Source: an uncultured Pelagibacteraceae bacterium
GTDB taxonomy: Bacteria; Pseudomonadota; Alphaproteobacteria; Pelagibacterales; AG-422-B15
Direction: 5' to 3'
Length of the DNA stretch: 64,000 nt
Assembly: GCA_902614655.1 (NCBI GenBank)
Contig: CACMLX010000005.1
Coordinates: forward strand, 2,643-66,642
Below are positions 17,316-44,305 of the stretch, piece by piece. Both the position numbers and the translations under genes were made by a program. A model generated the notes under the pieces. It did no database searches and had not been told where the DNA came from. It saw only the letters and a program-made list of their open reading frames with translations. The number at the start of each line of letters is the position of its first letter. Within the stretch, counting starts at the first letter, position 1.

Positions 17316-17630
17316 TTGTTAAATTTTATGAATATAATTTCAATAATGATGAGACGGCTTAATATTCATAGTTTCTCTCAATTTATCGTAATCATGATTA
17401 TTTTTGCTATCACAGGGTCATTGTCGCTTTATATCACTGTCGAATTATTTCAATTTATAGGTCTTCAGGAAGAGAATTTAAATCCAATAATTTTTTGGCC
17501 GCTTAGAATAATATTACTTTTTGTAATCTATCAAATATTACTGCTACTTGTTGCACTGCCATTTGGACAATTTCAATATTTTTGGTCATTTGAAAAAAAA
17601 TTTTTAAGTAGATTTGGACTTAAATTATAA
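17316..17630 (+). CDS. Hypothetical small integral membrane protein
   Basis: About 100 aa with 2-3 predicted TM helices and no recognisable motif. Start is TTG 17316 or ATG 17328. Confidence 0.4.
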   Translation: MLNFMNIISIMMRRLNIHSFSQFIVIMIIFAITGSLSLYITVELFQFIGLQEENLNPIIFWPLRIILLFVIYQILLLLVALPFGQFQYFWSFEKKFLSRFGLKL

Positions 17631-18413: not shown

Positions 18414-18976
18414 TAGTCTACTCTTTTTGAATATGATAGGTCCTCTGTATTAATTTCTATCTTTTCACCCTGTTCTATAAAAGGTGGAACCATTACTCTA
18501 ATACCATTTTCAAGAATGGCAGGCTTGTTCGATGAAGCGGCTGTTTGTCCTTTAACAACAGCCTCTGTTTCATTGACAATAAAAGACAAGGTTTTAGGAA
18601 GTTGAATTCCTATTGGCTTTTCATTATACATTTCTAGGATGACCTCATCATTTTCACTCATTAAAGCTAGCTTTTCTCCAACTATTTCCTCATCAATTTC
18701 AATTTGTTCATATGAAGTACTGTTCATAAAGAAAAGTTTGTTATCTTGCTTGTACAGATACTGATATTTTTCTTCATCTACTCTAACCCTCTCTACTTCT
18801 TCTGATGCTCTGAAACGTTCATTTAATTTCGTACTAGTTTTAATATTTTTCATCTCAACTTGATTAAATGCACCACCTTTACCAGGTTTTACAGACTGAG
18901 ATTTATTCACAACCCACAATTCTCCCTTGTGTTCAACTATCATTCCTGGTTTAACAGCGTTTCCATTAATTTTCAT
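18413..18976 (-). CDS. efp: Elongation factor P
   Basis: GMIVEHKGELW...VKPGKGGAF loop; three-domain length of 187 aa. Confidence 0.95.
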   Translation of the reverse strand: MKINGNAVKPGMIVEHKGELWVVNKSQSVKPGKGGAFNQVEMKNIKTSTKLNERFRASEEVERVRVDEEKYQYLYKQDNKLFFMNSTSYEQIEIDEEIVGEKLALMSENDEVILEMYNEKPIGIQLPKTLSFIVNETEAVVKGQTAASSNKPAILENGIRVMVPPFIEQGEKIEINTEDLSYSKRVD

Positions 18977-18982
18977 TTTTTC

Positions 18983-19996
18983 TTAACCTTCGAGAGATTT
19001 ATCCCACTGACCTTGTGCGGCCTTCATATTCATTACAGCTCTATGGCTAAAAGCTTTTTGAGCCGCTTCAAGATTGTCATCTTTGCCAGCCCAAGTTTTG
19101 AGAGCCGCTTGTTGTAAAGCCCTTCCATAAGAAAAACTTAGCTTCCATTTGAAGCCACCTATTTTATTCATTGCATCGAGATGAGCTGTTGCATCTAGGT
19201 CTGACTGACCACCAGATAAAAAAACAATTCCAGGTAATTCATCTGGAACAGATGATTTGAGACATTGAAGTGTTTTTTCTGCAACTTCTTCAATGGGGGC
19301 TTGGTAGTTATTTTCTGTTCCTGATACAACCATATTTGGTTTAAGAAGAGTTCCTTTAATATTGACATTTTTTTTATCAAGCATTTCAAATAAAACTAAT
19401 AGTGTTTGATTAGTAACCTCATGACACCTTTCCACAGAGTGGGACCCATCCATAATAACCTCAGGCTCAACAATCGGTACCATATTGCTTTGTTGAGCAA
19501 TGAGTGCATATTCAGCTAATGCATTCATATTTTCGCTTATACAATTGTTTGATGGTATTTCATCACTTACATTTATAACGGCTCTCCATTTTGTAAATTT
19601 CGCTCCAAGCTTATCGTACTCTTGACAGCGTTCATGAAGTCCGTCTAATCCTGTAGTAATTTTTTCATCACTACCACCTTCAAATTCTTTTACTCCTTGA
19701 TCAACTTTAATTCCAGGCAGTGAGCCGTGATCAAGTATAACATTTCTTAAATAGTCTCCATCACCAGACTTTTGTCTGAGAGTTTCGTCGAAAAGTATCA
19801 CTCCGCCAATTGCCTCTGCCATAGCCGGAGATCTAAATAACATTTCTCTATACTTTCTTCTATTGTCTTCGGTAGACTCAACATTAATTGATTTGAATCG
19901 TTTCTCAATGGTTCCTGAACTTTCATCGGCTGCCAGAATTCCTTTGCCATCACTAACAATGTAATTTGCTATCTCTTCTAAGGTCTTTGGTATCAT
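18983..19996 (-). CDS. fba: Fructose-bisphosphate aldolase, class I
   Basis: GILAADES, LLKPNMV (Schiff-base Lys region), VFLSGGQS and SFSYGRALQ; 337 aa. Confidence 0.9.
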   Translation of the reverse strand: MIPKTLEEIANYIVSDGKGILAADESSGTIEKRFKSINVESTEDNRRKYREMLFRSPAMAEAIGGVILFDETLRQKSGDGDYLRNVILDHGSLPGIKVDQGVKEFEGGSDEKITTGLDGLHERCQEYDKLGAKFTKWRAVINVSDEIPSNNCISENMNALAEYALIAQQSNMVPIVEPEVIMDGSHSVERCHEVTNQTLLVLFEMLDKKNVNIKGTLLKPNMVVSGTENNYQAPIEEVAEKTLQCLKSSVPDELPGIVFLSGGQSDLDATAHLDAMNKIGGFKWKLSFSYGRALQQAALKTWAGKDDNLEAAQKAFSHRAVMNMKAAQGQWDKSLEG

Positions 19997-20009
19997 TTTC
20001 TTCTCCTTT

Positions 20010-21206
20010 TTATAAAGCTCCTAAGGCAACTAAACCTGGCAATTTCTTACCTTCTATTAGCTCAAGTAGAGCTCCTCCGCCAGTAGAAACATAAGAAAAT
20101 TTATCTTTAACAGACGCCATATCCAGCGCGGAAATTGTATCACCGCCCCCAGCAAAAGATCGAAGACTATTTTTATCAGTAATTTCAGCAATGAATTTAG
20201 CGATCTCGATTGTGCCTTTATGAAATGGTTTAGTTTCAAAGACACCCACTGGTCCATTCCAAAATACTGTTTTACAATTTGAAATTTCATTTTTAATCAA
20301 CTCGATAGTTTGTTTCCCAATATCTAAAATCATTTGATTATCTTTTACAGCATCAACTGCACATTCGTTTATTTCTGTAGTTTCAGATACTTTCTCAGCT
20401 GTAACGACATCTAAAGGTAAAATTAGTTTACATTTTTGCTCATTTGCAAAATTAATAATTTCTTTTACGAGGTGATTTACATCATTTTCAATCAATGAAT
20501 TTTTTACATCATTTCCTAAATATTTAAGAAAATTATTAGCCATCCCACCAGCAATGACAATTGAGTCCATTTTTTGCAGGAGATTTTTTATAACTGTAAT
20601 TTTTGTTGAGATTTTTGAGCCACCAATGATAGTTAATGCAGGAGTTTTAGGGTTATTAACTACATCATTTAAGTTTAATATTTCTTCATGTAATAACTCT
20701 CCACAATAAGATGGTATGAAGTTTGTGATTGCTGCAATTGAGGCGTGAGCTCTATGAGAGCATGCAAAAGCATCATTAATATAAACGTCTGCTAATTTTG
20801 ATAGCTCGGATGCAAAAAATTTATCATTTTGCTCTTCGCCTTCATGAAAACGGCAATTTTCAAGAAGAATAATTGAGTCCTGGTTTAAAGAATTTATTTT
20901 TTTTTCAATCTCATCGCCTATGCAATTTGAAAGAAATATTATTTTTTTTTGCAATACGTTTTCTAATGAGCTGATTAATTGATTAAGTGAAAGCTCATCA
21001 TTTCTTTTTCCTTTTGGTCTTCCTAGATGAGACAGAATTACAACTTTATTATTCTTATTAAGAAGGTTTTGTATTGGATTTTTAATTCTCGTAATCCGAT
21101 CGCTTATTGTAGAGGCTTCTTTATTGAGCGGAATATTTAAGTCAAAGCGAATAAGTACAGTTTTATTTTTCTGATCAAATGTTTTTAGAGCTTTAACATT
21201 TAACAT
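20010..21206 (-). CDS. pgk: Phosphoglycerate kinase
   Basis: IRFDLNIP, SHLGRPKG, NDAFACSHRAHAS, FWNGPVGVFE and STGGGA motifs; 398 aa. Confidence 0.95.
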   Translation of the reverse strand: MLNVKALKTFDQKNKTVLIRFDLNIPLNKEASTISDRITRIKNPIQNLLNKNNKVVILSHLGRPKGKRNDELSLNQLISSLENVLQKKIIFLSNCIGDEIEKKINSLNQDSIILLENCRFHEGEEQNDKFFASELSKLADVYINDAFACSHRAHASIAAITNFIPSYCGELLHEEILNLNDVVNNPKTPALTIIGGSKISTKITVIKNLLQKMDSIVIAGGMANNFLKYLGNDVKNSLIENDVNHLVKEIINFANEQKCKLILPLDVVTAEKVSETTEINECAVDAVKDNQMILDIGKQTIELIKNEISNCKTVFWNGPVGVFETKPFHKGTIEIAKFIAEITDKNSLRSFAGGGDTISALDMASVKDKFSYVSTGGGALLELIEGKKLPGLVALGAL

Positions 21207-21207
21207 T

Positions 21208-22218
21208 CTATCTAGATCTTTTCATCGCAACTGCAGTATCACACATTCGATTTGAAAAGCCCCATTCATTATCATACCAACTTAAAACTCTTCCAAACTT
21301 TCCATCAATTACTTGTGTTTGAGTTAAATCAAAATTTGATGAGGCAGGATTATGATTAAAATCAGATGAAACCAATGGTTTAGAATTTACATCTAGGACT
21401 CCATTTAGCTTATTTGATTTTGCTGCAGCCGACATAGCCTTATTAATACTATCGACTGTCATTCTTTTTTTAGAAACAAATTTAAAGTCGATTAATGAAA
21501 CATTAGGTGTTGGTACTCTAATTGCAGTTCCATCTAACTTACCAGCAAGCTCAGGCATAACGAGTCCTACTGCTTTTGCAGCTCCTGTAGATGTAGGTAT
21601 CATTGACAATGACGCAGCTCGAGCTCTTCTTATGTCTGAGTGAAATGTATCCAGAACACTTTGGTCACCAGTAAAGGCATGTATAGTTGTCATATATCCA
21701 TGCACAATTTTGAATTTATCGTGTAAAACTTTTGCAACAGGAGCTAAACAATTTGTCGTGCAAGACGCATTAGATACAACTAGGTCTTCTTTTGTTATCT
21801 CATCTTCATTCACTCCATACACAATGGTTTTATCAGCATTTGTACATGGCGCTGAGACTAAAACCTTTTTTGCGCCGGCCTTAATATGCATTGCCGCCTT
21901 ATCTTTTGAAGTAAATAATCCAGTGCATTCAAGAGCGACATCAATTTTCATTCTTTTCCAAGGAAGTTTTTGAGGATCTCTTTGATTCAATACTGTTATA
22001 TTTTTTCTTCCAACGATCATTTTATTTCGTTTGAACGATACTTTTTCATTAAGAGGGCCGTGAACAGTATCATTTGCAAGTAAAAATGCGTTTGTTTCTA
22101 TTGGGGCTAAATCGTTAATAGCCACGACATTAATATCTTTTCTTTTACTCTCAATGATTGATCTTAAAACCAACCTTCCAATTCTTCCAAATCCACTTAT
22201 CGCAACATTTACAGCCAT
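21208..22218 (-). CDS. gap: Glyceraldehyde-3-phosphate dehydrogenase
   Basis: ISGFGRIGR, active site SNASCTTNCLAP and WYDNEWGFSNR; 336 aa. Confidence 0.95.
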   Translation of the reverse strand: MAVNVAISGFGRIGRLVLRSIIESKRKDINVVAINDLAPIETNAFLLANDTVHGPLNEKVSFKRNKMIVGRKNITVLNQRDPQKLPWKRMKIDVALECTGLFTSKDKAAMHIKAGAKKVLVSAPCTNADKTIVYGVNEDEITKEDLVVSNASCTTNCLAPVAKVLHDKFKIVHGYMTTIHAFTGDQSVLDTFHSDIRRARAASLSMIPTSTGAAKAVGLVMPELAGKLDGTAIRVPTPNVSLIDFKFVSKKRMTVDSINKAMSAAAKSNKLNGVLDVNSKPLVSSDFNHNPASSNFDLTQTQVIDGKFGRVLSWYDNEWGFSNRMCDTAVAMKRSR

Positions 22219-22230
22219 ATTTAGTAACTC

Positions 22231-24228
22231 CTATATTTTCTTACTTATTAATTTGAATATTTTTTTTGCCGTAATCCCATAAAAATCGTAAAGCTTTTGA
22301 TAAGGAGCACTTGCTCCAAAATCTTTCATACCGATGTATATTGTATTTTCAGGGCATACTTGGCTCCACCCAAAATTAGTTCCCGCCTCAATCGAGATAT
22401 TAATTTCAGAGTTTCCTCTAATTGTTTTTTGATACGTTTTACTTTGGATTTTAAACTGTTCCATGCACGGTACCGAAACGACTCTCACTAACTTTTTCTT
22501 TTTTTCAAGCATAATCATTAATTGCAGTGCAATTTCGACTTCAGAGCCAGACGCGAAAATAGAAATATTAGGTTTTTTTGAATTACTTTTTAATTCGTAA
22601 GCTCCTTGAGCACTAATATTTTTTGCATGATACTTTTTTCTTATCATTGGAAGTTTTTGCCTTGTTAGTGCAATTACACTTGGTCCCTTTGAATTTGAAA
22701 GTGCTAATTCCCATGCTTCCGCAGTTTCAATTAAATCAGCAGGTCTAAAGACTTTTACATTTGGCGTTGCTCTTAATGATGCAAGCTGTTCAATTGGTTG
22801 ATGCGTTGGACCATCTTCACCAAGACCGATTGAGTCATGAGTTAATATATATATAGCTCTTTGTTTCATTAAAGCTGCAAGACGAAGAGATGGTTTACAA
22901 TAATCTAAAAAAATTAAAAAAGTTCCACCAAATGGAATAATTCCTTTATGGAGTGACAACCCATTCATGATAGAAGCCATACCGTGCTCTCGTATTCCAT
23001 AGTAAATATAATTGCCATTGTAATTTGTAGAATTAATAACTTCCATTTTACTACCTTTAGTATTGTTAGAGCCTGTCAAGTCTGCTGAGCCTCCAACCAA
23101 TTCAGGTAGTGATGATGAAATTGTATTTATTACCATTTCTGATGCTTGTCGTGTGGCAACATCGAGTGGTTTCTTAATATATTTCTTCTTAAACTGATTA
23201 AAGTTTTGAATTAATTTTAATGGAAGCTTTCCTTCGATTCTTCTTATGTAGTGAGCCTTTTTGCTTTTTGGAAGTTTCTCATAATTCAATTTCCAAGACT
23301 TATATGCATCTATTGATTTTTTACTAAGATTTTTCCACTCCTCAAGTATATTTTTTGGAACTGTAAATGGTTTGTGTGGCCAATTCAGTTTAGTTCTAGT
23401 AAGTTTTACTTCATCCTCACCAAGTGGTGAACCATGAACTGATGATTTCCCCTGTTTGTTTGGAGATCCAAAACCAATTTTAGTTTTACAAGAAATTAAT
23501 GTTGGTTTCTTAGATTTTTGAGCTTTCTTAATTGACTGTATTATTTCTTTAGGTTTGTGACCATTTATTTTAATTGTATTCCATCCATAGGCTTTAAATC
23601 TCTCAGCCGTATTTTCTGAGTTTGCCAGTTTAACAGGCCCATCTATTGAAATTCCATTATCGTCAAAAAAAACAATCAACTTATTTAGTTTTAGATGCCC
23701 TGCAAAAGATGCGACTTCATGAGAAATCCCCTCCATTAAATCTCCATCACTTGCAATAACGTAAGTGAAATGATTTACAATTTTTTCGCCAAATTGACTT
23801 CTTAGTATTTCTTCTGCTAACGCCATTCCAACTGCATTGCCGATACCTTGTCCAAGTGGGCCAGTCGTTGTTTCTATACCTTTAGCGTGCCCATACTCTG
23901 GATGACCTGCACATTTACTACCAAGCTGTCTAAATTTCTTGATCTCTTGAATAGTCATATCTTTATGACCGGTTAGATAGAGTAGTGAGTATAAAAGCAT
24001 TGATCCATGACCAGCAGATAGTACGAATCTATCTCTATCATGCCACCTTGGAACATTAGGATTGTATTTTAAAAACTTCGTAAAAAGAACAGTTGCTACA
24101 TCTGCCATACCCATTGGTAAACCTGGGTGACCACTTTTTGCTTTTTCAACCGCATCGATTGAAAGAAACCTTATTGCGTTAGCTAAATCATCATGAGAAA
24201 CTGCAGACTGATCTTTTTTGTTAGGCAT
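22231..24228 (-). CDS. tkt: Transketolase
   Basis: SGHPGLPMG, GDGDLMEGISHE and THDSIGLGEDGPTHQPIE; 665 aa. Confidence 0.95.
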   Translation of the reverse strand: MPNKKDQSAVSHDDLANAIRFLSIDAVEKAKSGHPGLPMGMADVATVLFTKFLKYNPNVPRWHDRDRFVLSAGHGSMLLYSLLYLTGHKDMTIQEIKKFRQLGSKCAGHPEYGHAKGIETTTGPLGQGIGNAVGMALAEEILRSQFGEKIVNHFTYVIASDGDLMEGISHEVASFAGHLKLNKLIVFFDDNGISIDGPVKLANSENTAERFKAYGWNTIKINGHKPKEIIQSIKKAQKSKKPTLISCKTKIGFGSPNKQGKSSVHGSPLGEDEVKLTRTKLNWPHKPFTVPKNILEEWKNLSKKSIDAYKSWKLNYEKLPKSKKAHYIRRIEGKLPLKLIQNFNQFKKKYIKKPLDVATRQASEMVINTISSSLPELVGGSADLTGSNNTKGSKMEVINSTNYNGNYIYYGIREHGMASIMNGLSLHKGIIPFGGTFLIFLDYCKPSLRLAALMKQRAIYILTHDSIGLGEDGPTHQPIEQLASLRATPNVKVFRPADLIETAEAWELALSNSKGPSVIALTRQKLPMIRKKYHAKNISAQGAYELKSNSKKPNISIFASGSEVEIALQLMIMLEKKKKLVRVVSVPCMEQFKIQSKTYQKTIRGNSEINISIEAGTNFGWSQVCPENTIYIGMKDFGASAPYQKLYDFYGITAKKIFKLISKKI

Positions 24229-24393: not shown

Positions 24394-24657
24394 ATGTCGA
24401 GTTATCAAGATTCAAAAGATAAATTTAATGGTGCAATTGATAAACTTACTGAGGAAATCGACAAATTAACAAAAAAGGCTCAAAGAGCTACAGAATTGGA
24501 AGCGCAAAATCAAAAATTACAAGAAAATAACTCTCATCTAGAGAATGAGATTAAAATTCTTAAGTCAGATTTTATGGAACTTAAAAATATTGCAGGAAAT
24601 ATTTCTTCTCAACTAGATGAAAACATTTATACCATAAAAGATATATTAGATTCTTAA
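24394..24657 (+). CDS. Coiled-coil protein upstream of zapA (DUF4164/ZapB-like)
   Basis: 87 aa, almost entirely heptad-like coiled coil. It lies 3 nt before zapA, the arrangement common in alphaproteobacteria. Confidence 0.5.
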   Translation: MSSYQDSKDKFNGAIDKLTEEIDKLTKKAQRATELEAQNQKLQENNSHLENEIKILKSDFMELKNIAGNISSQLDENIYTIKDILDS

Positions 24658-24660
24658 TCA

Positions 24661-25023
24661 ATGCCTGAAATAATTGTAAATATTAATGATCAAGATTACG
24701 CAATTGTCTGCGATCCGGGTGAAGAAAACCATCTTAAACATTTAAGCTCAAAAATTGACTATAAAGTGAGAGAATTAACAAAGAGATTTGGAAAAATTGG
24801 AGAAACTAGATTAATGGTAATGGCTTCACTGTTAATAGCAGATGAAATACATGAGCTAAATAAAAAACTAGAAACAAATATTGAAAAAATAAATTCCCTT
24901 GAAGCGAACATTGGTTCAAAAGATAAAGAATTGACTGACCAGAAAAAAGAGAGTCAGGAATATATAGACATTAGCAACGATAGATTAACAGATTTATTAT
25001 CACGCTTGTCTCTTTTAAACTAA
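24661..25023 (+). CDS. zapA: Cell division protein ZapA
   Basis: N-terminal ZapA fold pattern (IVNINDQDYAIVCDPGEE..L..L) followed by a coiled coil; 120 aa. Synteny with the 5-FCL gene. Confidence 0.7.
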   Translation: MPEIIVNINDQDYAIVCDPGEENHLKHLSSKIDYKVRELTKRFGKIGETRLMVMASLLIADEIHELNKKLETNIEKINSLEANIGSKDKELTDQKKESQEYIDISNDRLTDLLSRLSLLN

Positions 25024-25050
25024 TTTTAAAAATTAGATTTCATTTTATAC

Positions 25051-25626
25051 ATGACGAAAAGTGTGCAACTGAGAGAAAAAGAAGCATTAAGAAAGTTTTT
25101 AATCAATCGACGCTCAGAACTTGGTTCATCAATAGATTTTCAGAGAAATATACTTAATAACATTAAGCCCCTCATAGAAGAAATAGAAAATGAATATATT
25201 GGAACTTATATAAGTTTCAGAGATGAATTAGATACAAAAAAATTAAACCAATATTTACTTGAAAGAGAACTTAATTTAGCTTTACCAGCCATAGATTTTC
25301 AGACTAAAGAAATTAATTTCTTCATGTATCATGAAAACACTGAATTAATAGAAAATAAATTTACTATTTTAGAACCTAAGAATAAAGATAAAGTTATCTT
25401 TCCAAAAATTATTTTAATACCATTATTAGGTTATTCCAAAAGTGGCTTTAGGTTGGGGTACGGGGGTGGATATTATGATAAGTATTTATCAAAGAATGGT
25501 ATTGGTGAAGTAAAAAAAATAGGAATAGCATTTTCATTTCAAGAAGTAGAAGAAATTCCTGTCGAAGATCATGATGAAAGACTTGATTGGATTTTAACTG
25601 AAAAACATTTATATAAAGTTCAATGA
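25051..25626 (+). CDS. 5-formyltetrahydrofolate cyclo-ligase
   Basis: C-terminal GFRLGYGGGYYDKYL motif and ...EDHD; 191 aa. Confidence 0.8.
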   Translation: MTKSVQLREKEALRKFLINRRSELGSSIDFQRNILNNIKPLIEEIENEYIGTYISFRDELDTKKLNQYLLERELNLALPAIDFQTKEINFFMYHENTELIENKFTILEPKNKDKVIFPKIILIPLLGYSKSGFRLGYGGGYYDKYLSKNGIGEVKKIGIAFSFQEVEEIPVEDHDERLDWILTEKHLYKVQ

Positions 25627-26423
25627 GAATTCTATTTTTAGGCGATGTAATGGGTCGATCTGGAAGACATGCTTTGAGAGATCATCTACCAGATGCTATT
25701 AAAAATAATAATATAGATTTTGTTATTGCTAACGGGGAAAATTCTGCTGGTGGCTTTGGTATTACCGAGCCAATATGCAACGAATTATATTCTTATGGAG
25801 TTAATGTAATCACAACTGGAAATCATTTGTGGGATCAAAAAGAGATAAATAGTTATATCGATAAAGATGATAAACTTTTAAAGCCTTATAATTTTGCTGA
25901 AGGCTCTCCAGGTTTAGGTGTAAATACTTATATGCATGAGAATGGACAAAAAATTGCAGTAATAAATTTAATGGGGAATCTATTTATGAGATCATGTGAT
26001 AATGCATTTTTTAAAATTGAAGAAGTTCTTAAGAATTTAAAGACTGAAGATCTATCATTTATATTTGTTGATTTTCACGCTGAAGCTACAAGTGAAAAAA
26101 TGGCAATGGGACACCATCTTGACGGAAGAGTAACAGCAGTTGTTGGAACTCATACTCACGTTCCAACTGCAGATGCAACAATCATGGAACATGGAACAGC
26201 TTTTCAAACTGACGCTGGAATGTGTGGTGACTATGATTCAGTTATTGGCACAAAAAAAGAGGAGTTCGTAAGAAAATTTGCTACACAAGACACTGAGCGA
26301 AAAAGGGTACCTCCGGCTGATGGCGAAGGAACATTATGTGGGGTTATTATAGAATCAAACACTGAAAACTATTTAGCAAAAAGTATTAGTTCAATTCGTA
26401 TTGGAGGAAAAATCGGTAATTAA
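25623..26423 (+). CDS. ymdB: YmdB-family metallophosphoesterase (2',3'-cyclic-nucleotide phosphodiesterase-like)
   Basis: MRILFLGDVMGRSGR, ANGENSAGGFGIT, TTGNHLWD, VDFHAEATSEK and GTHTHVPTAD; 266 aa. Confidence 0.85.
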   Translation: MRILFLGDVMGRSGRHALRDHLPDAIKNNNIDFVIANGENSAGGFGITEPICNELYSYGVNVITTGNHLWDQKEINSYIDKDDKLLKPYNFAEGSPGLGVNTYMHENGQKIAVINLMGNLFMRSCDNAFFKIEEVLKNLKTEDLSFIFVDFHAEATSEKMAMGHHLDGRVTAVVGTHTHVPTADATIMEHGTAFQTDAGMCGDYDSVIGTKKEEFVRKFATQDTERKRVPPADGEGTLCGVIIESNTENYLAKSISSIRIGGKIGN

Positions 26424-27167
26424 ATGGCAGGCCACTCTAAATTTAAAAACATTATGTATCGAAAAGGTGCACAAGATAAAAAGAGAGCTAGTTTATTTTC
26501 TAAACTTTCAAAGGAAATTACGGTAGCAGCTAAGTTGGGCGCACCTGATCCTGATCAAAATGCGAGATTAAGATCAGCTATACAATTAGCAAAAGCCGCA
26601 AGCTTTCCTAAGGAAAACATCGATAGAGCGATAAAAAAATCTTTGGATAAAGATACGATTAACTATGATCAAATGAGGTACGAAGGATTTGGCCCAAACG
26701 GAACGTCGATAATTGTCGAGGCACTTACGGATAATCGAAATAGAACAGCTTCAAATGTAAGATCTGCATTTCAAAAATTTGGAGGTTCAATGGGTGAAAC
26801 AGGTTCAGTCTCCCATGCATTTAATCGTTATGGTTTTGTGCGTTATAACAAAGATGTGACAAGCGAAGAAGATTTTTTCAACTTTTCGATTGAGGGTGGA
26901 GCTGAAGATTGTTTTATCGAAGAAGATACTTATGAAGCAGTAACTACGCCAGAAACTCTATCAAATTTATATAATTATTTAGATAAAAAATTTGGTGAGC
27001 CTGTATCATCAGGTTTCCAATGGAAACCTGTTACGTATGTAGCTATTGAGGGCGATAAACTTAAATCCCTTGTTAACTTGCTCAATGAACTTGATAATGA
27101 TGAGGATGTTCAACAAGTCTATTCAAATTTTGAGGCATCAGACGAAGAATTAGCAAAGTTTGCTTAA
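26424..27167 (+). CDS. yebC: YebC/PmpR-family transcriptional regulator
   Basis: MAGHSKFKNIMYRKGAQDKKR... YEGFGPNG, TDNRNRTASNVR; 247 aa. Confidence 0.95.
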   Translation: MAGHSKFKNIMYRKGAQDKKRASLFSKLSKEITVAAKLGAPDPDQNARLRSAIQLAKAASFPKENIDRAIKKSLDKDTINYDQMRYEGFGPNGTSIIVEALTDNRNRTASNVRSAFQKFGGSMGETGSVSHAFNRYGFVRYNKDVTSEEDFFNFSIEGGAEDCFIEEDTYEAVTTPETLSNLYNYLDKKFGEPVSSGFQWKPVTYVAIEGDKLKSLVNLLNELDNDEDVQQVYSNFEASDEELAKFA

Positions 27168-27234
27168 TTTATTCACTTTCAAAAAAAATTTATATGAATT
27201 AATCTTAAATTATTAAGTAATTCTGATTCGCTTT

Positions 27235-27615
27235 ATGCCAGGTAGTTCTCCAAAAAGAAAAGGTGATGGATACGAGAGAGAGCTTGCGAAGTATTTCAAT
27301 GAAAAAATTTTTAATGGAGAGGACAAAGTTCAACGTATGCCTTTGTCAGGTGGTGGCGCTATCAAATCTTCTGGAGGCAGTGATTTAAAAAATACTCCTC
27401 ATATATACGTTGAAGCTAAAAGAACTGAAAAGTTCAAAATTCATGAATCAATGAGACAAGTTTGCGAAAATATTGAAACATCTAAATCAGACTCAATGCC
27501 GGTTGTTATAACTAGAAGAAATCGAGAGGCAACAGGGGACTCGCTTTGTGTTTTAAAACTTGACGACTTTATAGAACTTTATCGAATATTAATTAATAGT
27601 AAAAAAGGACTTTAG
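27235..27615 (+). CDS. Hjc-like PD-(D/E)XK nuclease (putative Holliday junction resolvase)
   Basis: KGDGYERELAKYF ... RMPLSGGG ... GSDL ... IYVEAKR reproduces the Hjc-type E / D / E-x-K catalytic arrangement; 126 aa. It occupies the slot between yebC and tolQ where ruvC-ruvA-ruvB usually sit. Confidence 0.55.
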   Translation: MPGSSPKRKGDGYERELAKYFNEKIFNGEDKVQRMPLSGGGAIKSSGGSDLKNTPHIYVEAKRTEKFKIHESMRQVCENIETSKSDSMPVVITRRNREATGDSLCVLKLDDFIELYRILINSKKGL

Positions 27616-27659
27616 GATTTGCCCTAATTAAGACAATATTTAATAATAATTGAAAAATT

Positions 27660-28364
27660 ATGGAAAACGAAGATTTAGTAAGTGTTAGCCAAGTAAACGA
27701 TGAGTTCACATTAATTTCACTTTTTTTTAGAGCAGATATTGTCGTAAAGTTAGTGATTCTAATTCTATTTGCTTCTTCCATTTTCTCATGGACAATCATA
27801 ATTCATAAAATTCGTTTATTTCGTTCTTTAAAAGAAATCAGTAAGCAATTCGAGGAGGAATTTTGGTCGGGAAGATCAATAAAAGAAATCGCTAGTAGCA
27901 CGAGAGAATTACCAGAAAGTCCGATTAAGTATGTTTTCAATGAAGCTGTTGACGAGATTGAAAAGTCTAATCAGGAAACTACAAAAAAAATAGATAGTTT
28001 AGTTGATAGATTAAATCGTGTTATGGAGGCAGCAATAGATTTTCAAAATGAGAAGCTATCTGAATACTTTAGTTATTTAGCAACAATAGGCGCTACGACT
28101 CCATTTATTGGATTATTTGGAACGGTCTGGGGAATAATGAATTCTTTTCAATCTATTGCCATTTCAAGAAATACCTCCCTTGCAGTAGTTGCTCCTGGAA
28201 TAGCTGAAGCATTATTTGCAACTGCTCTTGGTTTGTTAGCAGCAATACCTGCTGTTATTGCTTACAATATATTTACTAGTCAGGTGAATGATGAAAATGC
28301 ACGAATGTATCGATTTAAAGAACATTTTAATGTTATTTTCTCAAGAGGCTTGAGTACGAAATAG
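27660..28364 (+). CDS. tolQ: Tol-Pal system protein TolQ
   Basis: MotA/TolQ/ExbB channel pattern with three TM helices and GLFGTVWGIMNSF...APGIAEALFATALGL; 234 aa. Confidence 0.9.
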   Translation: MENEDLVSVSQVNDEFTLISLFFRADIVVKLVILILFASSIFSWTIIIHKIRLFRSLKEISKQFEEEFWSGRSIKEIASSTRELPESPIKYVFNEAVDEIEKSNQETTKKIDSLVDRLNRVMEAAIDFQNEKLSEYFSYLATIGATTPFIGLFGTVWGIMNSFQSIAISRNTSLAVVAPGIAEALFATALGLLAAIPAVIAYNIFTSQVNDENARMYRFKEHFNVIFSRGLSTK

Positions 28365-28376
28365 AAATTTTAAATT

Positions 28377-28781
28377 GTGACACGTAACACTAGATCAAAA
28401 CCATTCAGTGAAATCAATGTAACACCTTTCGTTGATGTAATGCTGGTTTTATTGATCATTTTTATGGTAACCGCTCCTTTGTTAACAGTGGGAGTTCAGG
28501 TTGACTTACCTGAAACAAATGCAGATACTTTACAATCTGACGATGAACCGCTTGAAGTAACAATTGATGCAAGCGGTAATATATTCATTCAAGAGACAGA
28601 GATAGGCATTTCTGAACTAGTTCCAAAAATGAAAGCAATAACAGAAAATAGACTTGATACAAAAATTTATGTTAGAGGAGATGAAGCAATTGATTATGGA
28701 CAGATAATGATGGTTTTAGGAGAGCTATCTGGTTCTGGTTTTACAAAGGTTGCTTTGATTACTAAGCCATTAAGTAAATAA
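28377..28781 (+). CDS. tolR: Tol-Pal system protein TolR
   Basis: ExbD/TolR pattern INVTPFVDVMLVLLIIFMV with the conserved Asp in the TM helix; 134 aa; GTG start. Confidence 0.9.
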   Translation: MTRNTRSKPFSEINVTPFVDVMLVLLIIFMVTAPLLTVGVQVDLPETNADTLQSDDEPLEVTIDASGNIFIQETEIGISELVPKMKAITENRLDTKIYVRGDEAIDYGQIMMVLGELSGSGFTKVALITKPLSK

Positions 28782-28797
28782 TTAATGCTATTTATAT

Positions 28798-29610
28798 ATG
28801 AGAGTTTCTGTTTTAGGGTCAATATTTCTACACGTTTTCATACTTTTATTTACGGTCTTATCTTTGCCATTATTTAATAATAATGATTTGGAAATGCCTC
28901 CGGTTATACAAGTTGAATTAATAGAAATCGCAGAAAAAACAAATGTCCCACAAATTAGTAAAAAAATCGAAGAACAAAAAGAACCAGTTGAAAAAAAGAA
29001 GGAAGAAACAAAACTAAACCAGCCAATTAGTAAACCCAAAGATGAAAAATCCAACGAAAAAGTAAAAGACCCTAGCGATGAAGAAAAAATTGAAAAAACT
29101 AAATTAGAAGAAAAAATGATGCAAAACATGCCTGTACGAAAACCTGAGGTTAAGAAAAAAGATAAATTTGATCCTCTTAAATTAGCCGAGTTAATCGATA
29201 AACAAAAAGATACAAAAATGGATAATCCTGAAGAAATTATGGAAAAAGATTATGAAGCGTTAGACTCAACACCTAGTCTTGACAAACGACTTACTTTATC
29301 AGAGGAGGATGCTATCAGAGCACAATTTATGCAATGCTGGAGCATACCTCTTGGAATTCCATATGATGATACAATGATTGTTAAAATTAAGATTTACTTA
29401 AACACAGATGGTTCTTTGCTCAAACCACCGGAGGTTGTTCAACATGAAAGGATGAATAAGCCTAGTGAAAAATATTTTAGAACTCTTGCTGAAAGTGCCC
29501 TTAGAGCAGTAAGACGTTGTGATCCAATAAAAGTTCCAGATGTTGAAAGATATGACAATTGGAAAAATTTGCAGTTGAATTTTGATCCTAGAGAGATACT
29601 AAGAGGATAA
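28798..29610 (+). CDS. tolA: Tol-Pal system protein TolA (TonB-C-like C terminus)
   Basis: N-terminal TM anchor, long K/E/P-rich spacer and a C-terminal globular domain. Position between tolR and tolB. Confidence 0.7.
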   Translation: MRVSVLGSIFLHVFILLFTVLSLPLFNNNDLEMPPVIQVELIEIAEKTNVPQISKKIEEQKEPVEKKKEETKLNQPISKPKDEKSNEKVKDPSDEEKIEKTKLEEKMMQNMPVRKPEVKKKDKFDPLKLAELIDKQKDTKMDNPEEIMEKDYEALDSTPSLDKRLTLSEEDAIRAQFMQCWSIPLGIPYDDTMIVKIKIYLNTDGSLLKPPEVVQHERMNKPSEKYFRTLAESALRAVRRCDPIKVPDVERYDNWKNLQLNFDPREILRG

Positions 29611-29616
29611 TTTATT

Positions 29617-30939
29617 GTGAAAAAAATACTTTTATACATCGTAATAGCTCTTCATTTTTCATCTGTTTCATTTGCTATTATTGAAATTGATATTACTGAA
29701 GGTAATAGAGAACCTCTACCAATAGCCGTTACTGAATTTTTTCACGACACAGACAGTATTTTGGATGATCAAAATATATCATCAAGCATCCGTAAAGTTA
29801 TAGCTGATGACTTAGAGAGAAGTGGATTATTTTTATCTGTAGATGAAAATGCATTTATTCAAAAAAATAGGGCAATGCATTTAAATCCGCGTTTTGCAGA
29901 TTGGAGATTAATAAAGGCTCAGGGCCTATTAACAGGTGAGCTATCGATTGAAAATGAGAGACTTCGAGTAGAGTTCAGACTTTGGGATACACTAGCTGAG
30001 AAGGAAATAGAGGGACTTGTCCTAATTACGACAATAGAAAATTGGAGAAGAATTAGCCACATGATTGCAGATAAGGTATATGAGCGCCTTACTGGTGAGC
30101 AGGGTTATTTTGATACTAGAATAGTTTATGTTGCTGAAGAAGGACCTAAAAATAAACGTATTAAGAAACTTGCGATAATGGATCAGGATGGGGCAAATCA
30201 TAAATTTTTAACTACAGGTAAAGAGCTTGTTTTGACTCCAAGATTTAACCCAGTAAGACAAGAGATTACTTATTTATCATATTTTAAAAATCTTCCGCGT
30301 GTCTATTTGTTAAACATACAAACAGGTATCCAAGAAGTGGTTGGAGACTTTCCAGGTATGACATTTGCACCTCGTTTTTCTCCAGATGGAAATAAAATTA
30401 TCATGAGTTTAGCCAGAGAAGGTAACTCTGACATATATGTAATGGATCTAGTATCTAGAGTAGTTGAAAGGTTAACAGACAGCCCTGCAATTGATACATC
30501 ACCAAGTTATTCTCCAGACGGAAAGAGAATTACATTCAACTCTGATAGAGGTGGATCTCAACAAATTTATGTAATGGACAGTAATGGCAGAAACCAAAAA
30601 AGAATCTCAAAAGGAACAGGTAATTATGCAACACCTGTTTGGTCGCCACGAGGTGATCTTATTGCTTTTACAAAAAATTTTCAGGGACAATATTTTATTG
30701 GAGTGATGAGAACAGATGGAACTGGGGAGAGACTTTTAACAGAAAATTGGTATCAAGAGGCTCCTTCTTGGTCGTCTAATGGAAGAGTTTTGATATTTTA
30801 TAGAGAAACTAAGTCAGACGATGCAGGTCAGGGCCATTCCTCAGCAATTTGGTCAATTGATTTAACAGGATTTAATGAGAGAAAGCTTGAAACTCCAGTT
30901 GATGCATCAGATCCATCATGGTCGAAATTGATACAATAA
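29617..30939 (+). CDS. tolB: Tol-Pal system beta-propeller protein TolB
   Basis: Signal peptide, N-terminal TolB domain and repeated propeller blades ([32 protein letters not shown]); 440 aa; GTG start. Confidence 0.95.
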
Positions 30940-31060
30940 GCAATTTTTGTACTAAAATAAGACCATTTTAGTCAATTCGCAGCTATTTTATTATAGACTT
31001 GCATAACTTAAATTAATAAAGTACTAGGACTTGGGCGATCAAATATTACGGGAGTTTATA

Positions 31061-31582
31061 ATGTTATTAACATTTAAAAATTTAAATAGATTTGTAGTTC
31101 TATCTTTTGCGGCACTCATACTAGCTGCATGTACTACAACATCACAAGATACCGCATCTACATCATCATCATCATCAAGTTCGGCTTCTAAAGTTGAAGT
31201 TGTAGATGGAGTTTATGTTGGTGCTGATACAATAGAAATGCTTGCTGTTGATGTACCGGACAGAGTATTCTTTGCATATGATAGTTATTCACTAACAAGC
31301 GCAGCCCAAGCAACTTTAGCTAAACAAGCAAAGTGGTTAAAGGCAAATGGATCAGTTACTATTGCAATTGAAGGTCATGCCGATGAAAGGGGTACAAGGG
31401 AATATAACTTAGCCCTAGGTGATAGAAGAGCAAATGCAGCAAAAGATTATTTAATGACGCAAGGCATAAGCGCTAGTCGAATTACCACAATTAGTTTTGG
31501 TAAAGAAAGACCGGTTAACAGTGCATCTAATAATAAAGCATGGGCTCAAAATAGACGTTCTGTAACAGTAAGAACCAACTAA
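31061..31582 (+). CDS. pal: Peptidoglycan-associated lipoprotein Pal (OmpA-like)
   Basis: Lipobox LILAAC, poly-Ser linker and OmpA-C motif EGHADERGTREYNLALGDRRA...NRR. I start it at ATG 31061, preceded by GGGAG, rather than the listed TTG 31031. Confidence 0.9.
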   Translation: MLLTFKNLNRFVVLSFAALILAACTTTSQDTASTSSSSSSSASKVEVVDGVYVGADTIEMLAVDVPDRVFFAYDSYSLTSAAQATLAKQAKWLKANGSVTIAIEGHADERGTREYNLALGDRRANAAKDYLMTQGISASRITTISFGKERPVNSASNNKAWAQNRRSVTVRTN

Positions 31583-31653
31583 TTTATAATACGCCTTTTT
31601 TTAGACAAAAGATAAGCTTAATCTTTTAAATAAGGTTAAGTTTAGATAATGTA

Positions 31654-32688
31654 ATGTTCAAAAGAATTCAATTTATTTTCTTTTTTATTCTAATCTCTTT
31701 CACACAGATTATTCATGTTCAATCAGAAGAATTAGATCTAGATCAGTTGTTGCAAAAATTGGACTCAATAGAAAGTAGAATAAAGGTTCTTGAAAAGGCA
31801 ACGTTTAGCAAAACGACCTCTGGCGCTGGTAATAATGTCAGTCTTGATGATTATCAATCAATTATAACAAAACAATCTATTCAAATATCCGAATTACAAA
31901 ATGAAGTCCAATCACTGACAGCAAAAATTGAAGAAATGATATTTACAATGCAATCTACAGTAAATAATTTTAATACATTTAGAGAAGATACTGAATTTAG
32001 GTTTATCGATATAAATTCTAAAACTGAAAGTATAGAAAAAAATCAATTATCTATGGTGTTACCCAATAATGAAACACAAACTAATAACCTGGTAGATAAC
32101 ACAAGAGAGGCACTAAATTTGGAACCTCAGTCACTAGGAACAGTAAATGTTTCTTCAGAAGAGGAGTTATCTGCTTCACCATTTGAAATCAAAAATGTTG
32201 ATGAAGAGGAAGAGCAAGAAATAATTAATACCATTTCTCAGGATAATATTGTCGCTTTTGAAGAACAAGAAGTTGTACTAGCGGTACTGCCTGAAGGAGA
32301 TGAAAAAGGTCAATATGAATACGCAATGGGTCTCCTGAAGCAAGGTGACTATGAACTTGCTGAAAAAGCATTCCAAGAATTTATGGCTGTCGGAAACGAC
32401 TCCAGCCTTTTAAGCAATGCAAACTTTTGGCTAGCAGAAACTTATTATGTTAGAGAAAATTACAAAGACGCAGCTAAAAATTATTTAAGCCTATACCAAG
32501 TTTATCCAGACTCAAAGAAAGCCGCAGATGCACTTTTAAAACTCGGAATTTCTTTGGTTAACATGGACCAAAAGGAACAAGGGTGTGTAACTTTTATACA
32601 ATTAAAAGATACCTATCCAAATGCAAATACTGCTGTATTAAACAGGGGTAAATTAGAAATTGAAAAAAATGGCTGTGAAATTAGTTAA
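31654..32688 (+). CDS. cpoB: Cell division coordinator CpoB/YbgF (coiled coil + TPR)
   Basis: Signal peptide, N-terminal coiled coil and C-terminal TPR region (YEYAMGLLKQGDYELAEKAFQEF...WLAETYY...ALLKLG). Position after pal. Confidence 0.75.
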   Translation: MFKRIQFIFFFILISFTQIIHVQSEELDLDQLLQKLDSIESRIKVLEKATFSKTTSGAGNNVSLDDYQSIITKQSIQISELQNEVQSLTAKIEEMIFTMQSTVNNFNTFREDTEFRFIDINSKTESIEKNQLSMVLPNNETQTNNLVDNTREALNLEPQSLGTVNVSSEEELSASPFEIKNVDEEEEQEIINTISQDNIVAFEEQEVVLAVLPEGDEKGQYEYAMGLLKQGDYELAEKAFQEFMAVGNDSSLLSNANFWLAETYYVRENYKDAAKNYLSLYQVYPDSKKAADALLKLGISLVNMDQKEQGCVTFIQLKDTYPNANTAVLNRGKLEIEKNGCEIS

Positions 32689-43293: not shown

Positions 43294-43322
43294 AGTTTAT
43301 AATTATAGTACAACATAAGCTT

Positions 43323-44210: not shown

Positions 44211-44305
44211 TTTTTTTCATAAATTTTTATTTTATTTTTTTCTAGATGCTTGTGCTTATATATGTTTCAATATTTACAAATTTAATGAAATTGGGAGAAT
44301 AATTA

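What the first reader, a model, noticed from the sequence alone, without database searches (positions are those of the whole stretch)
27235..27615. Hjc-like PD-(D/E)XK nuclease occupies the ruvC-ruvA-ruvB slot between yebC and tolQ
Seen: a 126-aa ORF contains KGDGYERELAKYF, RMPLSGGG, GSDL and IYVEAKR. This is the E...D...E-x-K arrangement and spacing of archaeal-type Hjc Holliday junction resolvases. Established: in many proteobacteria the order is yebC, ruvC, ruvA, ruvB, (ybgC), tolQ, tolR, tolA, tolB, pal. Here yebC is followed only by this small nuclease and then tolQ. Inference: this may be a non-orthologous displacement of RuvC, with loss or relocation of ruvAB and ybgC at this locus. That would matter for a lineage reported to recombine at high rates.
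Basis: partly seen in the sequence, partly recalled or inferred. Interest (0 to 1): 0.6.

Follow-up and report, generated by a model that had tools for sequence, protein, structure and literature searches.

The report
Phage-type resolvase replaces RuvABC in SAR11
In this SAR11 (Pelagibacterales) genome a single 126-residue phage-derived nuclease gene sits exactly where related marine bacteria carry ruvC-ruvA-ruvB-ybgC, and published tables show cultured SAR11 strains have no RuvA, RuvB, RuvC or RecU, so it is probably the cell's substitute for the near-universal RuvABC recombination-junction machinery.

Summary
ORF 27235..27615 (+, 126 aa) lies between yebC and tolQRAB-pal and carries E14...D50...E60-x-K62.

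It belongs to Pfam PF24608 (PDDEXK_15, phage putative endonuclease), scoring 34.9 bits against a cut-off of 27. Archaeal Hjc is the consistent second-best match but stays below threshold.

Relatives at 45-57% identity are found only in phage replication/recombination modules, mainly CRP-810-type phages. Copies at 73-99% identity form one clade in Pelagibacteraceae. All five sampled lineages (the window and four relatives) share the same context, and dN/dS is 0.05-0.15.

Three other AT-rich marine alphaproteobacterial lineages, including SAR116, have identical flanks but carry yebC-ruvC-ruvA-ruvB-ybgC-tolQ. SAR11 has about 0.5 kb where they have about 2.6-2.8 kb.

A published table (PMC3403352) lists HTCC1062, HTCC7211 and HIMB114 as lacking RuvA, RuvB, RuvC and RecU. 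My two RuvB motif scans found no SAR11 copy.

The donor was a phage, not an archaeon. RuvAB was lost, not relocated.

Junction cleavage is inferred. No member of the family has been assayed.

The parts
27235..27615 (+). 126-aa PD-(D/E)XK nuclease gene (Pfam PF24608 PDDEXK_15; Hjc-like). Putative stand-alone Holliday junction resolvase of phage origin.
   Evidence: ORF and sequence. Pfam 34.9 bits against a cut-off of 27. PHROG 244, E=1e-20. AF2 model pLDDT 84 with an alpha-beta-beta-beta-alpha-beta core. Fold matches to phage Holliday junction resolvases. dN/dS 0.05-0.15.
27274..27282 (+). Codons for E14-R15-E16 on helix 1. This is the first acidic residue of the E...D...ExK site, and it aligns with E12-R13 of S. 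solfataricus Hjc.
   Evidence: Nearly invariant in alignment A1. HMM alignment to 4tkd Hjc.
27334..27378 (+). Codons for R34 to G48 (R-M-P-L-S-G-G-G-A-I-K-S-S-G-G). An invariant Arg is followed by a glycine-rich flexible loop, corresponding to the RAPASGSKRK loop of Hjc.
   Evidence: R34, S38, G39-41 and G47 are invariant. pLDDT is below 50 for residues 39-46. Register with Hjc.
27382..27384 (+). Codon for D50, the metal-binding Asp of the PD motif.
   Evidence: Invariant in 38 homologues. Aligns with D42 of Sso Hjc.
27412..27420 (+). Codons for E60-A61-K62, the (D/E)-x-K motif on strand beta 3.
   Evidence: Invariant in 38 homologues. Aligns with E55-M-K57 of Sso Hjc.
26424..27167 (+). yebC (TACO1/YebC family). 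In other alphaproteobacteria this gene directly precedes ruvC.
   Evidence: Pfam. yebC-ruvC adjacency in L328-L333, L268 and L125 and in IMCC1322.
27168..27234 (.). 67-bp spacer between yebC and the nuclease gene. No remnant of ruvC.
   Evidence: Sequence. tblastn with RuvC, RuvA, RuvB and YbgC finds nothing here.
27616..27659 (.). 44-bp spacer between the nuclease gene and tolQ. No remnant of ruvB or ybgC, and no terminator-like site.
27660..32688 (+). tolQ, tolR, tolA, tolB, pal and cpoB (ybgF). This is the right-hand flank of the slot and is syntenic with the RuvCAB-bearing lineages.
   Evidence: Pfam. tblastn identities of 45-55% to L331, L328, L268, L105 and L125.
24394..26423 (+). DUF4164 small ORF, zapA, 5-formyltetrahydrofolate cyclo-ligase and ymdB. 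This is the left-hand flank and is syntenic with the RuvCAB-bearing lineages.
   Evidence: Pfam. The same order is seen in L328-L333.

Best explanation
The ORF encodes a small, probably homodimeric, Mg2+-dependent PD-(D/E)XK endonuclease of the phage family PF24608. Its active site has the same layout as archaeal Hjc: E14, D50, E60-x-K62, plus a conserved Arg and a Gly-rich DNA-binding loop.

An ancestor of SAR11 (Pelagibacteraceae) captured the gene from the replication/recombination module of a temperate phage. It was fixed at the exact chromosomal site where alphaproteobacteria normally carry ruvC-ruvA-ruvB-ybgC, and that block was lost.

The proposed working is as follows. The dimer recognises four-way (Holliday) junctions or reversed forks by their structure. 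It nicks two opposed strands symmetrically, leaving ligatable duplexes. Any branch migration would be supplied by another translocase such as RecG or RadA. This parallels E. coli, where the prophage resolvase RusA rescues ruvA, ruvB and ruvC mutants if RecG is present (established genetics, recalled from memory).

Shown here: family membership, conservation of the catalytic motif, phage relatives, purifying selection, vertical inheritance in five sampled SAR11 lineages (the window and four relatives), and the exact positional replacement. Absence of RuvA, RuvB, RuvC and RecU from three cultured SAR11 genomes is published.

Inferred: dimerisation, junction specificity, the in vivo role, and the partner translocase.
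For: - Family: PF24608 at 34.9 bits against a cut-off of 27, and all 38 homologues match it. PHROG 244 (Holliday junction resolvase category), E=1e-20.
- Motif: E14, D50, E60 and K62, together with R15, R34 and S38-G41, are invariant or nearly so. They align in register with S. solfataricus Hjc.
- Fold: the AF2 model has pLDDT 84. The best PDB matches are Hjc ST1444 and RecU. There are 21 BFVD matches at E<=1e-3, and every match that carries a functional name is called 'Holliday junction resolvase'; archaeal-virus resolvases (SIRV1, haloarchaeal tailed viruses) follow at E 0.02-0.09.
- Phage relatives: 253 IMG/VR contigs, at most 57% identity. The homologues sit next to Prim-Pol, AAA_24, a PD-(D/E)XK exonuclease and an integrase. 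CRP-810-type phages include a SAR11 prophage (PMC11288001).
- Single acquisition: the SAR11 copies are monophyletic and nested in the phage family in a neighbour-joining tree.
- Core gene: the window and four further divergent Pelagibacteraceae lineages share an identical context. dN/dS is 0.05-0.15, like yebC, tolQ and ymdB, and divergence tracks that of the neighbours.
- Slot: SAR116 (L105, L125) and the L328-L333 and L268/L224 lineages have the same flanks but carry ruvC-ruvA-ruvB-ybgC. That is 2.6-2.8 kb between yebC and tolQ, against 0.49 kb in the window.
- Loss of RuvABC: HTCC1062, HTCC7211 and HIMB114 are scored RuvC-, RecU-, RuvA- and RuvB-, whereas under 2% of bacteria lack RuvAB and most of those are parasites (PMC3403352). 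No Pelagibacterales appeared among 120 genome hits, which included 3 SAR116. None appeared among 120 metagenome hits, which included 14 SAR116-like.
- No match to defence-system models.
Against: - No member of PF24608 has, to my knowledge, been assayed. 'Holliday junction resolvase' is an annotation and not a measurement.
- The link to Hjc is below threshold everywhere: Pfam E=0.084 (best in the family 0.0017), Foldseek E=0.08, HMM against PDB E=0.25. hhalign against one truncated Hjc gave probability 2%.
- The complete genome of the organism that supplied this window was not searched.
- I could not verify that SAR11 has RecG or RadA.
- PD-(D/E)XK nucleases of this size also act on flaps, forks, mismatches or specific sequences.
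- The monomer model superposes poorly on solved Hjc (rmsd about 10 A).
Confidence: 0.7

Rival explanations
1. It is a real, conserved PD-(D/E)XK nuclease, but its cellular substrate is not the Holliday junction. It might instead be a flap, fork or D-loop nuclease. It might be a damage- or mismatch-directed endonuclease compensating for other repair losses in SAR11. Its position next to yebC would then be historical accident.
For: The function of PF24608 is only 'putative'. All Hjc similarity is below threshold. Many small PD-(D/E)XK enzymes have other substrates (general knowledge).
Against: Every named structural or profile neighbour is a junction resolvase: Hjc, RecU, and phage or archaeal-virus resolvases. 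Phage homologues sit in recombination/replication modules with an annealing protein and an exonuclease. The gene replaces precisely the ruvCAB block in a lineage with no other known resolvase.
Confidence: 0.17
2. It is an accessory, RusA-like extra resolvase. RuvABC still exists elsewhere in this particular genome, relocated rather than lost.
For: Only 64 kb of this genome was available.
Against: A published genome-wide table finds no RuvA, RuvB, RuvC or RecU in three SAR11 genomes from subclades Ia and IIIa (subclade labels are from my own knowledge), one of them complete. The scans recovered 3 and 14 SAR116 loci and several other marine alphaproteobacteria, but none from the far more abundant SAR11. 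None of 240 RuvB-bearing loci contains a homologue of this nuclease.
Confidence: 0.05
3. It is a decaying prophage remnant, or a selfish, defence or toxin nuclease with no housekeeping role.
For: The closest relatives are phage genes. Prophages of the same phage type occur in SAR11.
Against: There are no other phage genes, integrase or att-like context around it. The core-gene context is identical in the window and four further divergent lineages. There is strong purifying selection and neighbour-like divergence. GC content (34.9%) matches the adjacent genes. There is no PADLOC match. The exact protein is present on at least 1000 contigs.
Confidence: 0.04

Closest known systems
Phage PDDEXK_15 proteins (Pfam PF24608; PHROG 244), e.g. 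Roseobacter phage CRP-810 gp22 'Holliday junction resolvase'
   Same: Same family above threshold. Identity is 45-57% over the whole core, with the same invariant residues and the same length of core.
   Different: The SAR11 gene is a chromosomal core gene with no phage neighbours. It lacks the acidic C-terminal tail that most phage copies carry. It forms its own clade. No member of either group has been tested biochemically.
Archaeal Hjc / Hje (Pfam PF01870) and the Hjc-like resolvases of archaeal viruses (SIRV1/2)
   Same: PD-(D/E)XK fold, small size (about 120-140 aa), and an E...D...E-x-K active site with an Arg and a flexible loop between strands 1 and 2. Best PDB fold hit and in-register motif alignment.
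   Different: Sequence similarity is below Pfam's threshold (13.3 bits against 21.1). The D-to-E spacing is shorter and the loop is Gly-rich. The organism is bacterial and the origin is phage.
RecU of Bacillota/Mollicutes
   Same: A PD-(D/E)XK resolvase that displaced RuvC in a large bacterial lineage. Second-best PDB fold hit. The displacement is described in PMC3403352.
   Different: RecU works with a retained RuvAB and lies away from ruvAB. Here RuvA and RuvB are gone too, and the new gene sits in their place. There is no RecU Pfam hit.
RusA of the E. coli cryptic prophage DLP12 (rus suppression of ruv mutants)
   Same: A phage-derived stand-alone resolvase that can replace the whole RuvABC system functionally, with RecG doing the branch migration (textbook genetics, from memory). 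PMC3403352 mentions RecG-RusA as an alternative system.
   Different: RusA has an unrelated fold and family. The protein has no RusA Pfam match, so the 'RusA-like' label of PHROG 244 is a misnomer. In E. coli RusA is a laboratory suppressor. Here the replacement is natural, ancient and fixed.
RuvC (RNase H-fold resolvase, PF02075)
   Same: Same genomic position immediately downstream of yebC, and the same presumed cellular task.
   Different: No sequence or fold relationship. RuvC acts within the RuvABC resolvasome, which SAR11 lacks.

Membership tests
Pfam PF24608 PDDEXK_15 (phage putative PD-(D/E)XK endonuclease) | Whole-protein score at or above the curated gathering threshold (27 bits) | tested here: met
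   34.9 bits, E=1.8e-8, residues 7-121. All 38 aligned homologues match.
Pfam PF24608 PDDEXK_15 (phage putative PD-(D/E)XK endonuclease) | Conserved E...D...(D/E)-x-K catalytic residues | tested here: met
   E14 is nearly invariant. D50, E60 and K62 are invariant.
Pfam PF24608 PDDEXK_15 (phage putative PD-(D/E)XK endonuclease) | Encoded by a phage | tested here: not met
   The window copy and four further SAR11 lineages carry it between chromosomal core genes. Homologues at 57% identity or less are in phage modules. This is a context feature and not a sequence criterion.
Archaeal Hjc (Pfam PF01870) | Score at or above the gathering threshold (21.1 bits) | tested here: not met
   13.3 bits, E=0.084. 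Below threshold in 18 of 38 relatives, best E=0.0017.
Archaeal Hjc (Pfam PF01870) | Catalytic E, D and E-x-K plus a basic residue and loop, in the Hjc order and register | tested here: met
   The HMM alignment to 4tkd Hjc places E14, R34, D50, E60 and K62 opposite E12, R, D42, E55 and K57.
Archaeal Hjc (Pfam PF01870) | Hjc fold | tested here: inconclusive
Archaeal Hjc (Pfam PF01870) | Homodimer that cleaves four-way junctions symmetrically | not testable with these tools
   Needs biochemistry or multimer modelling.
RuvC (PF02075) | RNase H-like fold and a RuvC profile match | tested here: not met
   No Pfam or NCBIfam hit. tblastn with a marine alphaproteobacterial RuvC finds nothing in the window.
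RusA (PF05866) | RusA profile match | tested here: not met
   No RusA hit at E<=10. The PHROG 244 name 'RusA-like' is not supported by the fold.
RecU (PF03838) | RecU profile match and fold | tested here: inconclusive
   No Pfam hit. RecU is the second Foldseek hit, E=0.2.
Anti-phage defence nucleases (PADLOC-DB) | Match to any defence-system model | tested here: not met
   0 families at E<=1.

The most novel reading that the evidence does not exclude
The most abundant free-living bacteria in the ocean process all recombination and fork-reversal junctions without any RuvAB motor. They use only a 126-residue domesticated phage resolvase, a natural and ancient equivalent of the laboratory 'rus' suppressor. 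It was fixed as part of genome streamlining, with a net saving of about 2.1-2.3 kb. Motor-less, structure-only resolution would then help shape SAR11's unusual recombination signature of very high r/m and short tracts.
Probability: 0.35. Interest if true: 0.75.

Novelty: new member of a known kind. Interest (0 to 1): 0.62.

Why it matters
RuvAB is among the most universal bacterial genes. According to PMC3403352 fewer than 2% of genomes lack it, and most of those are obligate parasites or endosymbionts.

SAR11 is free-living and hugely abundant, and it is noted for very high recombination rates (PMC3448164). It nevertheless lacks RuvA, RuvB, RuvC and RecU.

This analysis identifies a conserved, phage-derived, Hjc-like nuclease sitting exactly in the vacated slot. 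That gives a concrete and testable candidate for how SAR11 resolves recombination intermediates.

It is also a clean natural example of in situ non-orthologous displacement of a three-gene machine by one small phage gene, consistent with genome streamlining.

No paper in the searched library discusses this. Until now the absence has been recorded only in a supplementary table, and the gene only in automatic annotations.

Tried and rejected
- PDB sequence search with the single protein found nothing relevant.
- NCBIfam gave no meaningful hit.
- Foldseek against PDB gave only weak matches, with rmsd about 10 A.
- I considered T7 endonuclease I because its E-35-D-10-ExK spacing is similar. I rejected it because it ranked 20th at E=1.1.
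- I tried to build an Hjc profile for profile-profile comparison. The homologue search with the first 78 residues of Sso Hjc returned only two proteins. hhalign of A1 against the one usable, N-terminally truncated sequence was not significant, although it was in register.
- The promoter and terminator scan around the gene gave no more sites than shuffled sequence, so operon structure is undecided.
- Six of the seven literature searches (SAR11 or Pelagibacter combined with ruvA, ruvB, ruvC, RuvABC, recG or HTCC1062 locus tags) found no paper discussing the matter. The seventh, SAR11 with 'Holliday junction', returned only a table row and the CRP-810 phage paper.
- The Grote 2012 text has no mention of the topic, and no supplements are held for it. 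Viklund 2012 is not held.
- Cluster-name look-ups for the RuvB of the L261/L331 lineage returned no organism names. That lineage and the L268 lineage therefore remain unnamed AT-rich marine alphaproteobacteria.
- I looked for an AT-rich pelagiphage donor. The nearest viral loci have 36-67% GC and are all about equally distant, so no donor can be named.
- A strict RuvB pattern (pattern B) proved too insensitive on the control loci and was replaced.

Full report
**Observation**

The window has 33% GC. It contains an ATG-to-TAG ORF at 27235..27615 on the + strand that encodes 126 residues. Pfam confirms the neighbours:
- Upstream: a DUF4164 small ORF, zapA, 5-formyl-THF cyclo-ligase, ymdB and yebC (26424..27167).
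- Downstream: tolQ (27660..28364), tolR, tolA, tolB, pal and the TPR protein cpoB/ybgF, followed by tilS, ftsH, folP and glmM.

The spacers on either side of the ORF are 67 and 44 bp. They hold no remnant of other genes.

The exact protein is GIR05684.1, a 'hypothetical protein' from a Candidatus Pelagibacterales bacterium. It has been seen on at least 1000 public contigs, the longest 1.41 Mb. JGI annotates it automatically as 'Holliday junction resolvase'. The organism is therefore a member of SAR11, and the gene is real and abundant.

**What the protein is**

- Pfam: PF24608 (PDDEXK_15, 'Phage putative PDDEXK endonuclease') matches at 34.9 bits against a curated cut-off of 27. Archaeal Hjc (PF01870) is the next family at 13.3 bits against a cut-off of 21.1.
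- Across the family: all 38 members of alignment A1 match PF24608, and 18 also give sub-threshold Hjc matches, the best at E=0.0017.
- PHROGs: phrog_244, E=1e-20, labelled 'RusA-like Holliday junction resolvase'. There is no RusA Pfam hit, so that label is a misnomer.
- NCBIfam, PADLOC and a direct PDB sequence search give nothing.
- Conserved residues: invariant K7, K9, G10, R34, S38-G41, G47, D50, E60, A61, K62, R63, E65, Q75, R94, S103 and Y116. Nearly invariant D11, Y13, E14, R15 and E16.
- Profile against PDB sequences: S. solfataricus Hjc (4tkd) is found at E=0.25. The alignment is in register for KRKG..ER, R-A-P-x-S-G, D and E-x-K, so E14, D50, E60 and K62 fall opposite Hjc E12, D42, E55 and K57.
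- AlphaFold2 model built on A1: pLDDT 84, with helix 12-25, strands 57-62, 88-93 and 104-106, and helices 69-82 and 109-124. The Gly-rich loop at 39-46 is disordered.
- Foldseek against PDB: Hjc ST1444 ranks first (E=0.08) and RecU second, followed by Cas4, lambda exonuclease and RecE. All are PD-(D/E)XK enzymes, but the superposition is poor.
- Foldseek against viral models: 21 matches at E<=1e-3. Every match that carries a functional name is a 'Holliday junction resolvase'. The SIRV1 and haloarchaeal-virus resolvases appear further down the list, at E 0.02-0.09.
- Family size: an exhaustive profile search finds 1270 clusters at 50% identity with E<=1e-3.

Conclusion: this is a PD-(D/E)XK nuclease with an Hjc-like active-site layout. 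It is formally a member of a phage family and not of Pfam Hjc. No member of the family has, to my knowledge, been assayed.

**Where its relatives live**

Homologues fall into two sets.

The first set has 73-99% identity and 123-127 aa. Where a source names the organism it is Pelagibacteraceae or Pelagibacterales. I fetched four further lineages: P0053, on contigs up to 1.39 Mb, and P0041, P0048 and P0023. All have the context tkt / DUF4164 / zapA / 5-FTHF ligase / ymdB / yebC / nuclease / tolQRAB / pal.

Pairwise dN is 0.08-0.23 and dN/dS is 0.05-0.15, with synonymous sites saturated. This is the same range as for yebC, tolQ and ymdB, and the nuclease's divergence tracks that of its neighbours. 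The gene's GC content (34.9%) equals that of the adjacent genes. This is the signature of an old, vertically inherited core gene.

The second set has 57% identity or less and is viral. It includes 253 IMG/VR contigs and Roseobacter phage CRP-810 gp22 at 50% identity. Every context I inspected showed the gene beside Prim-Pol, an AAA_24 ATPase, a PD-(D/E)XK exonuclease and an integrase.

The CRP-810 paper reports that almost all phages of this type carry the resolvase together with an annealing protein. It also reports that one subgroup and one prophage are associated with SAR11 (PMC11288001).

In a neighbour-joining tree the SAR11 copies are monophyletic and nested inside the phage diversity. 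The nearest viral loci have 36-67% GC and are all about equally distant, so no specific donor can be named. Most phage copies carry an acidic C-terminal tail that the SAR11 copies lack.

**The slot**

I scanned public genomes and metagenomes with AT-biased back-translations of invariant RuvB motifs and then looked at the contexts of the hits. Three separate marine alphaproteobacterial lineages with 30-32% GC carry the same arrangement:
- SAR116 single-cell genomes (L105, L125).
- The lineage of L261 and L328-L333.
- The lineage of L224 and L268.

Between them these lineages show the order (DUF4164) zapA, 5-FTHF ligase, ymdB, yebC, ruvC, ruvA, ruvB, ybgC (4HBT thioesterase), tolQ, tolR, tolA, tolB, pal, cpoB, tilS and ftsH, with folP and glmM following in L268. 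No single fetched locus spans the whole series. Both flanks match the window gene for gene.

Their flanking proteins are 43-55% identical to the window's (FtsH 67-71%). They are therefore outgroups and not SAR11 proper.

The distance from the yebC stop to the tolQ start is 2587-2776 bp in those lineages and 492 bp in the window.

Of the 240 RuvB-bearing loci fetched, 26 show all of yebC, ruvC, ruvA, ruvB, ybgC and tolQ even within the limited flanks. None contains a homologue of the nuclease.

It also shows that the nuclease gene occupies precisely the place of ruvC-ruvA-ruvB-ybgC.

**Lost or relocated?**

The window has no ruvA, ruvB, ruvC or ybgC.

Neither RuvB scan returned a Pelagibacterales locus:
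- Among 120 genome hits there were 3 SAR116, plus Rickettsia, Bartonella, Odyssella and Hellea.
- Among 120 metagenome hits there were 14 SAR116-like, 1 and 2 from the other two lineages, 3 Rickettsia-like, and gammaproteobacteria.

SAR11 is more abundant and more AT-rich than SAR116 (my own knowledge), so this speaks against a SAR11 RuvB.

The decisive evidence is published. Additional file 1 of Zhang, Lin and Gao 2012 (PMC3403352) has the columns YebC, RuvC, RecU, RuvA and RuvB. It scores 'Candidatus Pelagibacter ubique' HTCC1062, 'Candidatus Pelagibacter sp.' HTCC7211 and 'alpha proteobacterium HIMB114' as YebC-positive and negative for all four others. Puniceispirillum marinum IMCC1322 (SAR116) has ruvC immediately after yebC and also has RuvA and RuvB.

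The same paper states that under 2% of bacteria lack RuvAB and that these are mostly parasites with reduced genomes. It does not discuss Pelagibacter and names no substitute.

RuvABC is therefore lost in SAR11 subclades Ia and IIIa (the subclade labels for these strains are from my own knowledge). The particular genome behind this window was not checked in full.

**Mechanism proposed**

By analogy with Hjc and RecU, the protein should act as follows:
- It forms a dimer.
- It binds four-way DNA by its structure, using the basic N-terminus (K7, R8, K9), R15, R34 and the flexible Gly-rich loop.
- It coordinates Mg2+ with E14, D50 and E60, with K62 completing the site.
- It makes paired nicks in opposed strands.

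With no RuvAB, branch migration would fall to another translocase. The precedent, recalled from established E. coli genetics, is that the prophage resolvase RusA, and also an archaeal Hjc, restore repair to ruv mutants provided RecG is present. PMC3403352 itself lists RecG-RusA as an alternative system.

Retention of the position immediately downstream of yebC is suggestive. That paper proposes YebC as a regulator of ruvABC. I found no promoter or terminator signal above background, so co-regulation is undecided.

**Comparison and novelty**

At the protein level this is a new, chromosomally domesticated member of a known phage family of Hjc-like nucleases.

At the system level it resembles the displacement of RuvC by RecU in Bacillota. 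It goes further, because RuvA and RuvB are gone as well and the newcomer sits in their place. It is also a natural counterpart of rus suppression.

Searches of the held literature for SAR11 or Pelagibacter together with ruv genes, Holliday junctions or the HTCC1062 locus tags found no discussion. One paper's table lists a 'putative Holliday junction resolvase' as a core SAR11 gene cluster, but it does not say which gene is meant (PMC3686209).

The components were therefore on record: the absence in a supplementary table and the gene in an automatic annotation. The connection between them, the phage origin and the exact positional replacement appear not to have been described.

**Verdict**

The resolvase function is well motivated but untested.

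Confidence by claim:
- About 0.95 that this is a PF24608 PD-(D/E)XK nuclease.
- About 0.9 that it replaced ruvCAB-ybgC in situ.
- About 0.7 that it is the functional junction resolvase of SAR11.

Noticed in passing
window 41644..56708: A dense cluster for uptake and breakdown of quaternary-amine osmolytes (Pfam). It contains a GMC (choline-dehydrogenase-like) oxidoreductase, an OpuAC glycine-betaine binding protein with permease and ATPase ORFs, and a DAO+GCV_T dimethylglycine-dehydrogenase-like protein. It also contains a homocysteine S-methyltransferase (BHMT-like), an M24 creatinase-like peptidase, a gamma-butyrobetaine-hydroxylase-like TauD protein, a 3-hydroxyacyl-CoA dehydrogenase, a BKACE enzyme (carnitine-type degradation) and an aldehyde dehydrogenase.
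   Followed up: partly
window 62435..62511 (+), and ORFs 61989..62597 (-) and 62482..63120 (+): A tRNA-Arg(tcg) gene lies under the ends of two overlapping mechanical ORFs. Their translations there (e.g. GAPGRIRTLNPQIRSLMLYPVELR) look like read-through of the tRNA gene, so those ORF ends are probably spurious. A tRNA-Val(gac) lies at 7846..7920.
   Followed up: partly
alignment A1; loci L005-L087, L340-L344: Most phage homologues (130-190 aa) carry an acidic, low-complexity C-terminal extension. It often ends in a short hydrophobic motif (...KVVxL or ...NGGxDG). All SAR11 chromosomal copies and a few phage copies (P0082, P0099) lack it. It may be a docking tail for a phage replication or recombination partner, and it was lost or was never present in the domesticated gene.
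   Followed up: no
L328-L333 (RuvB P0210/P0257) and L224/L268: Two unnamed marine alphaproteobacterial lineages with 30-32% GC share long-range synteny with SAR11 around zapA...ftsH but keep ruvCAB-ybgC. One RuvB cluster has 513 member sequences, so the lineage is abundant. Their identity could not be established; HIMB59/AEGEAN-169-like is one possibility. They would be the natural outgroups for dating the displacement.
   Followed up: partly
PHROG phrog_244 annotation: The PHROG family that matches this protein at E=1e-20 is labelled 'RusA-like Holliday junction resolvase'. The proteins are actually PD-(D/E)XK (Pfam PF24608) and have no RusA signature. The label is likely to propagate misleading phage annotations.
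   Followed up: partly
window 17625..24228 compared with L328/L331 4326..5757: In the RuvCAB-bearing relatives, efp and the inositol monophosphatase gene lie directly upstream of the DUF4164-zapA block. In the window and the other SAR11 loci, a glycolytic block (fba, pgk, gap, tkt; 18983..24228, minus strand, named by eye from the translations) lies between them. So this neighbourhood was remodelled at more than one point in the SAR11 lineage.
   Followed up: no
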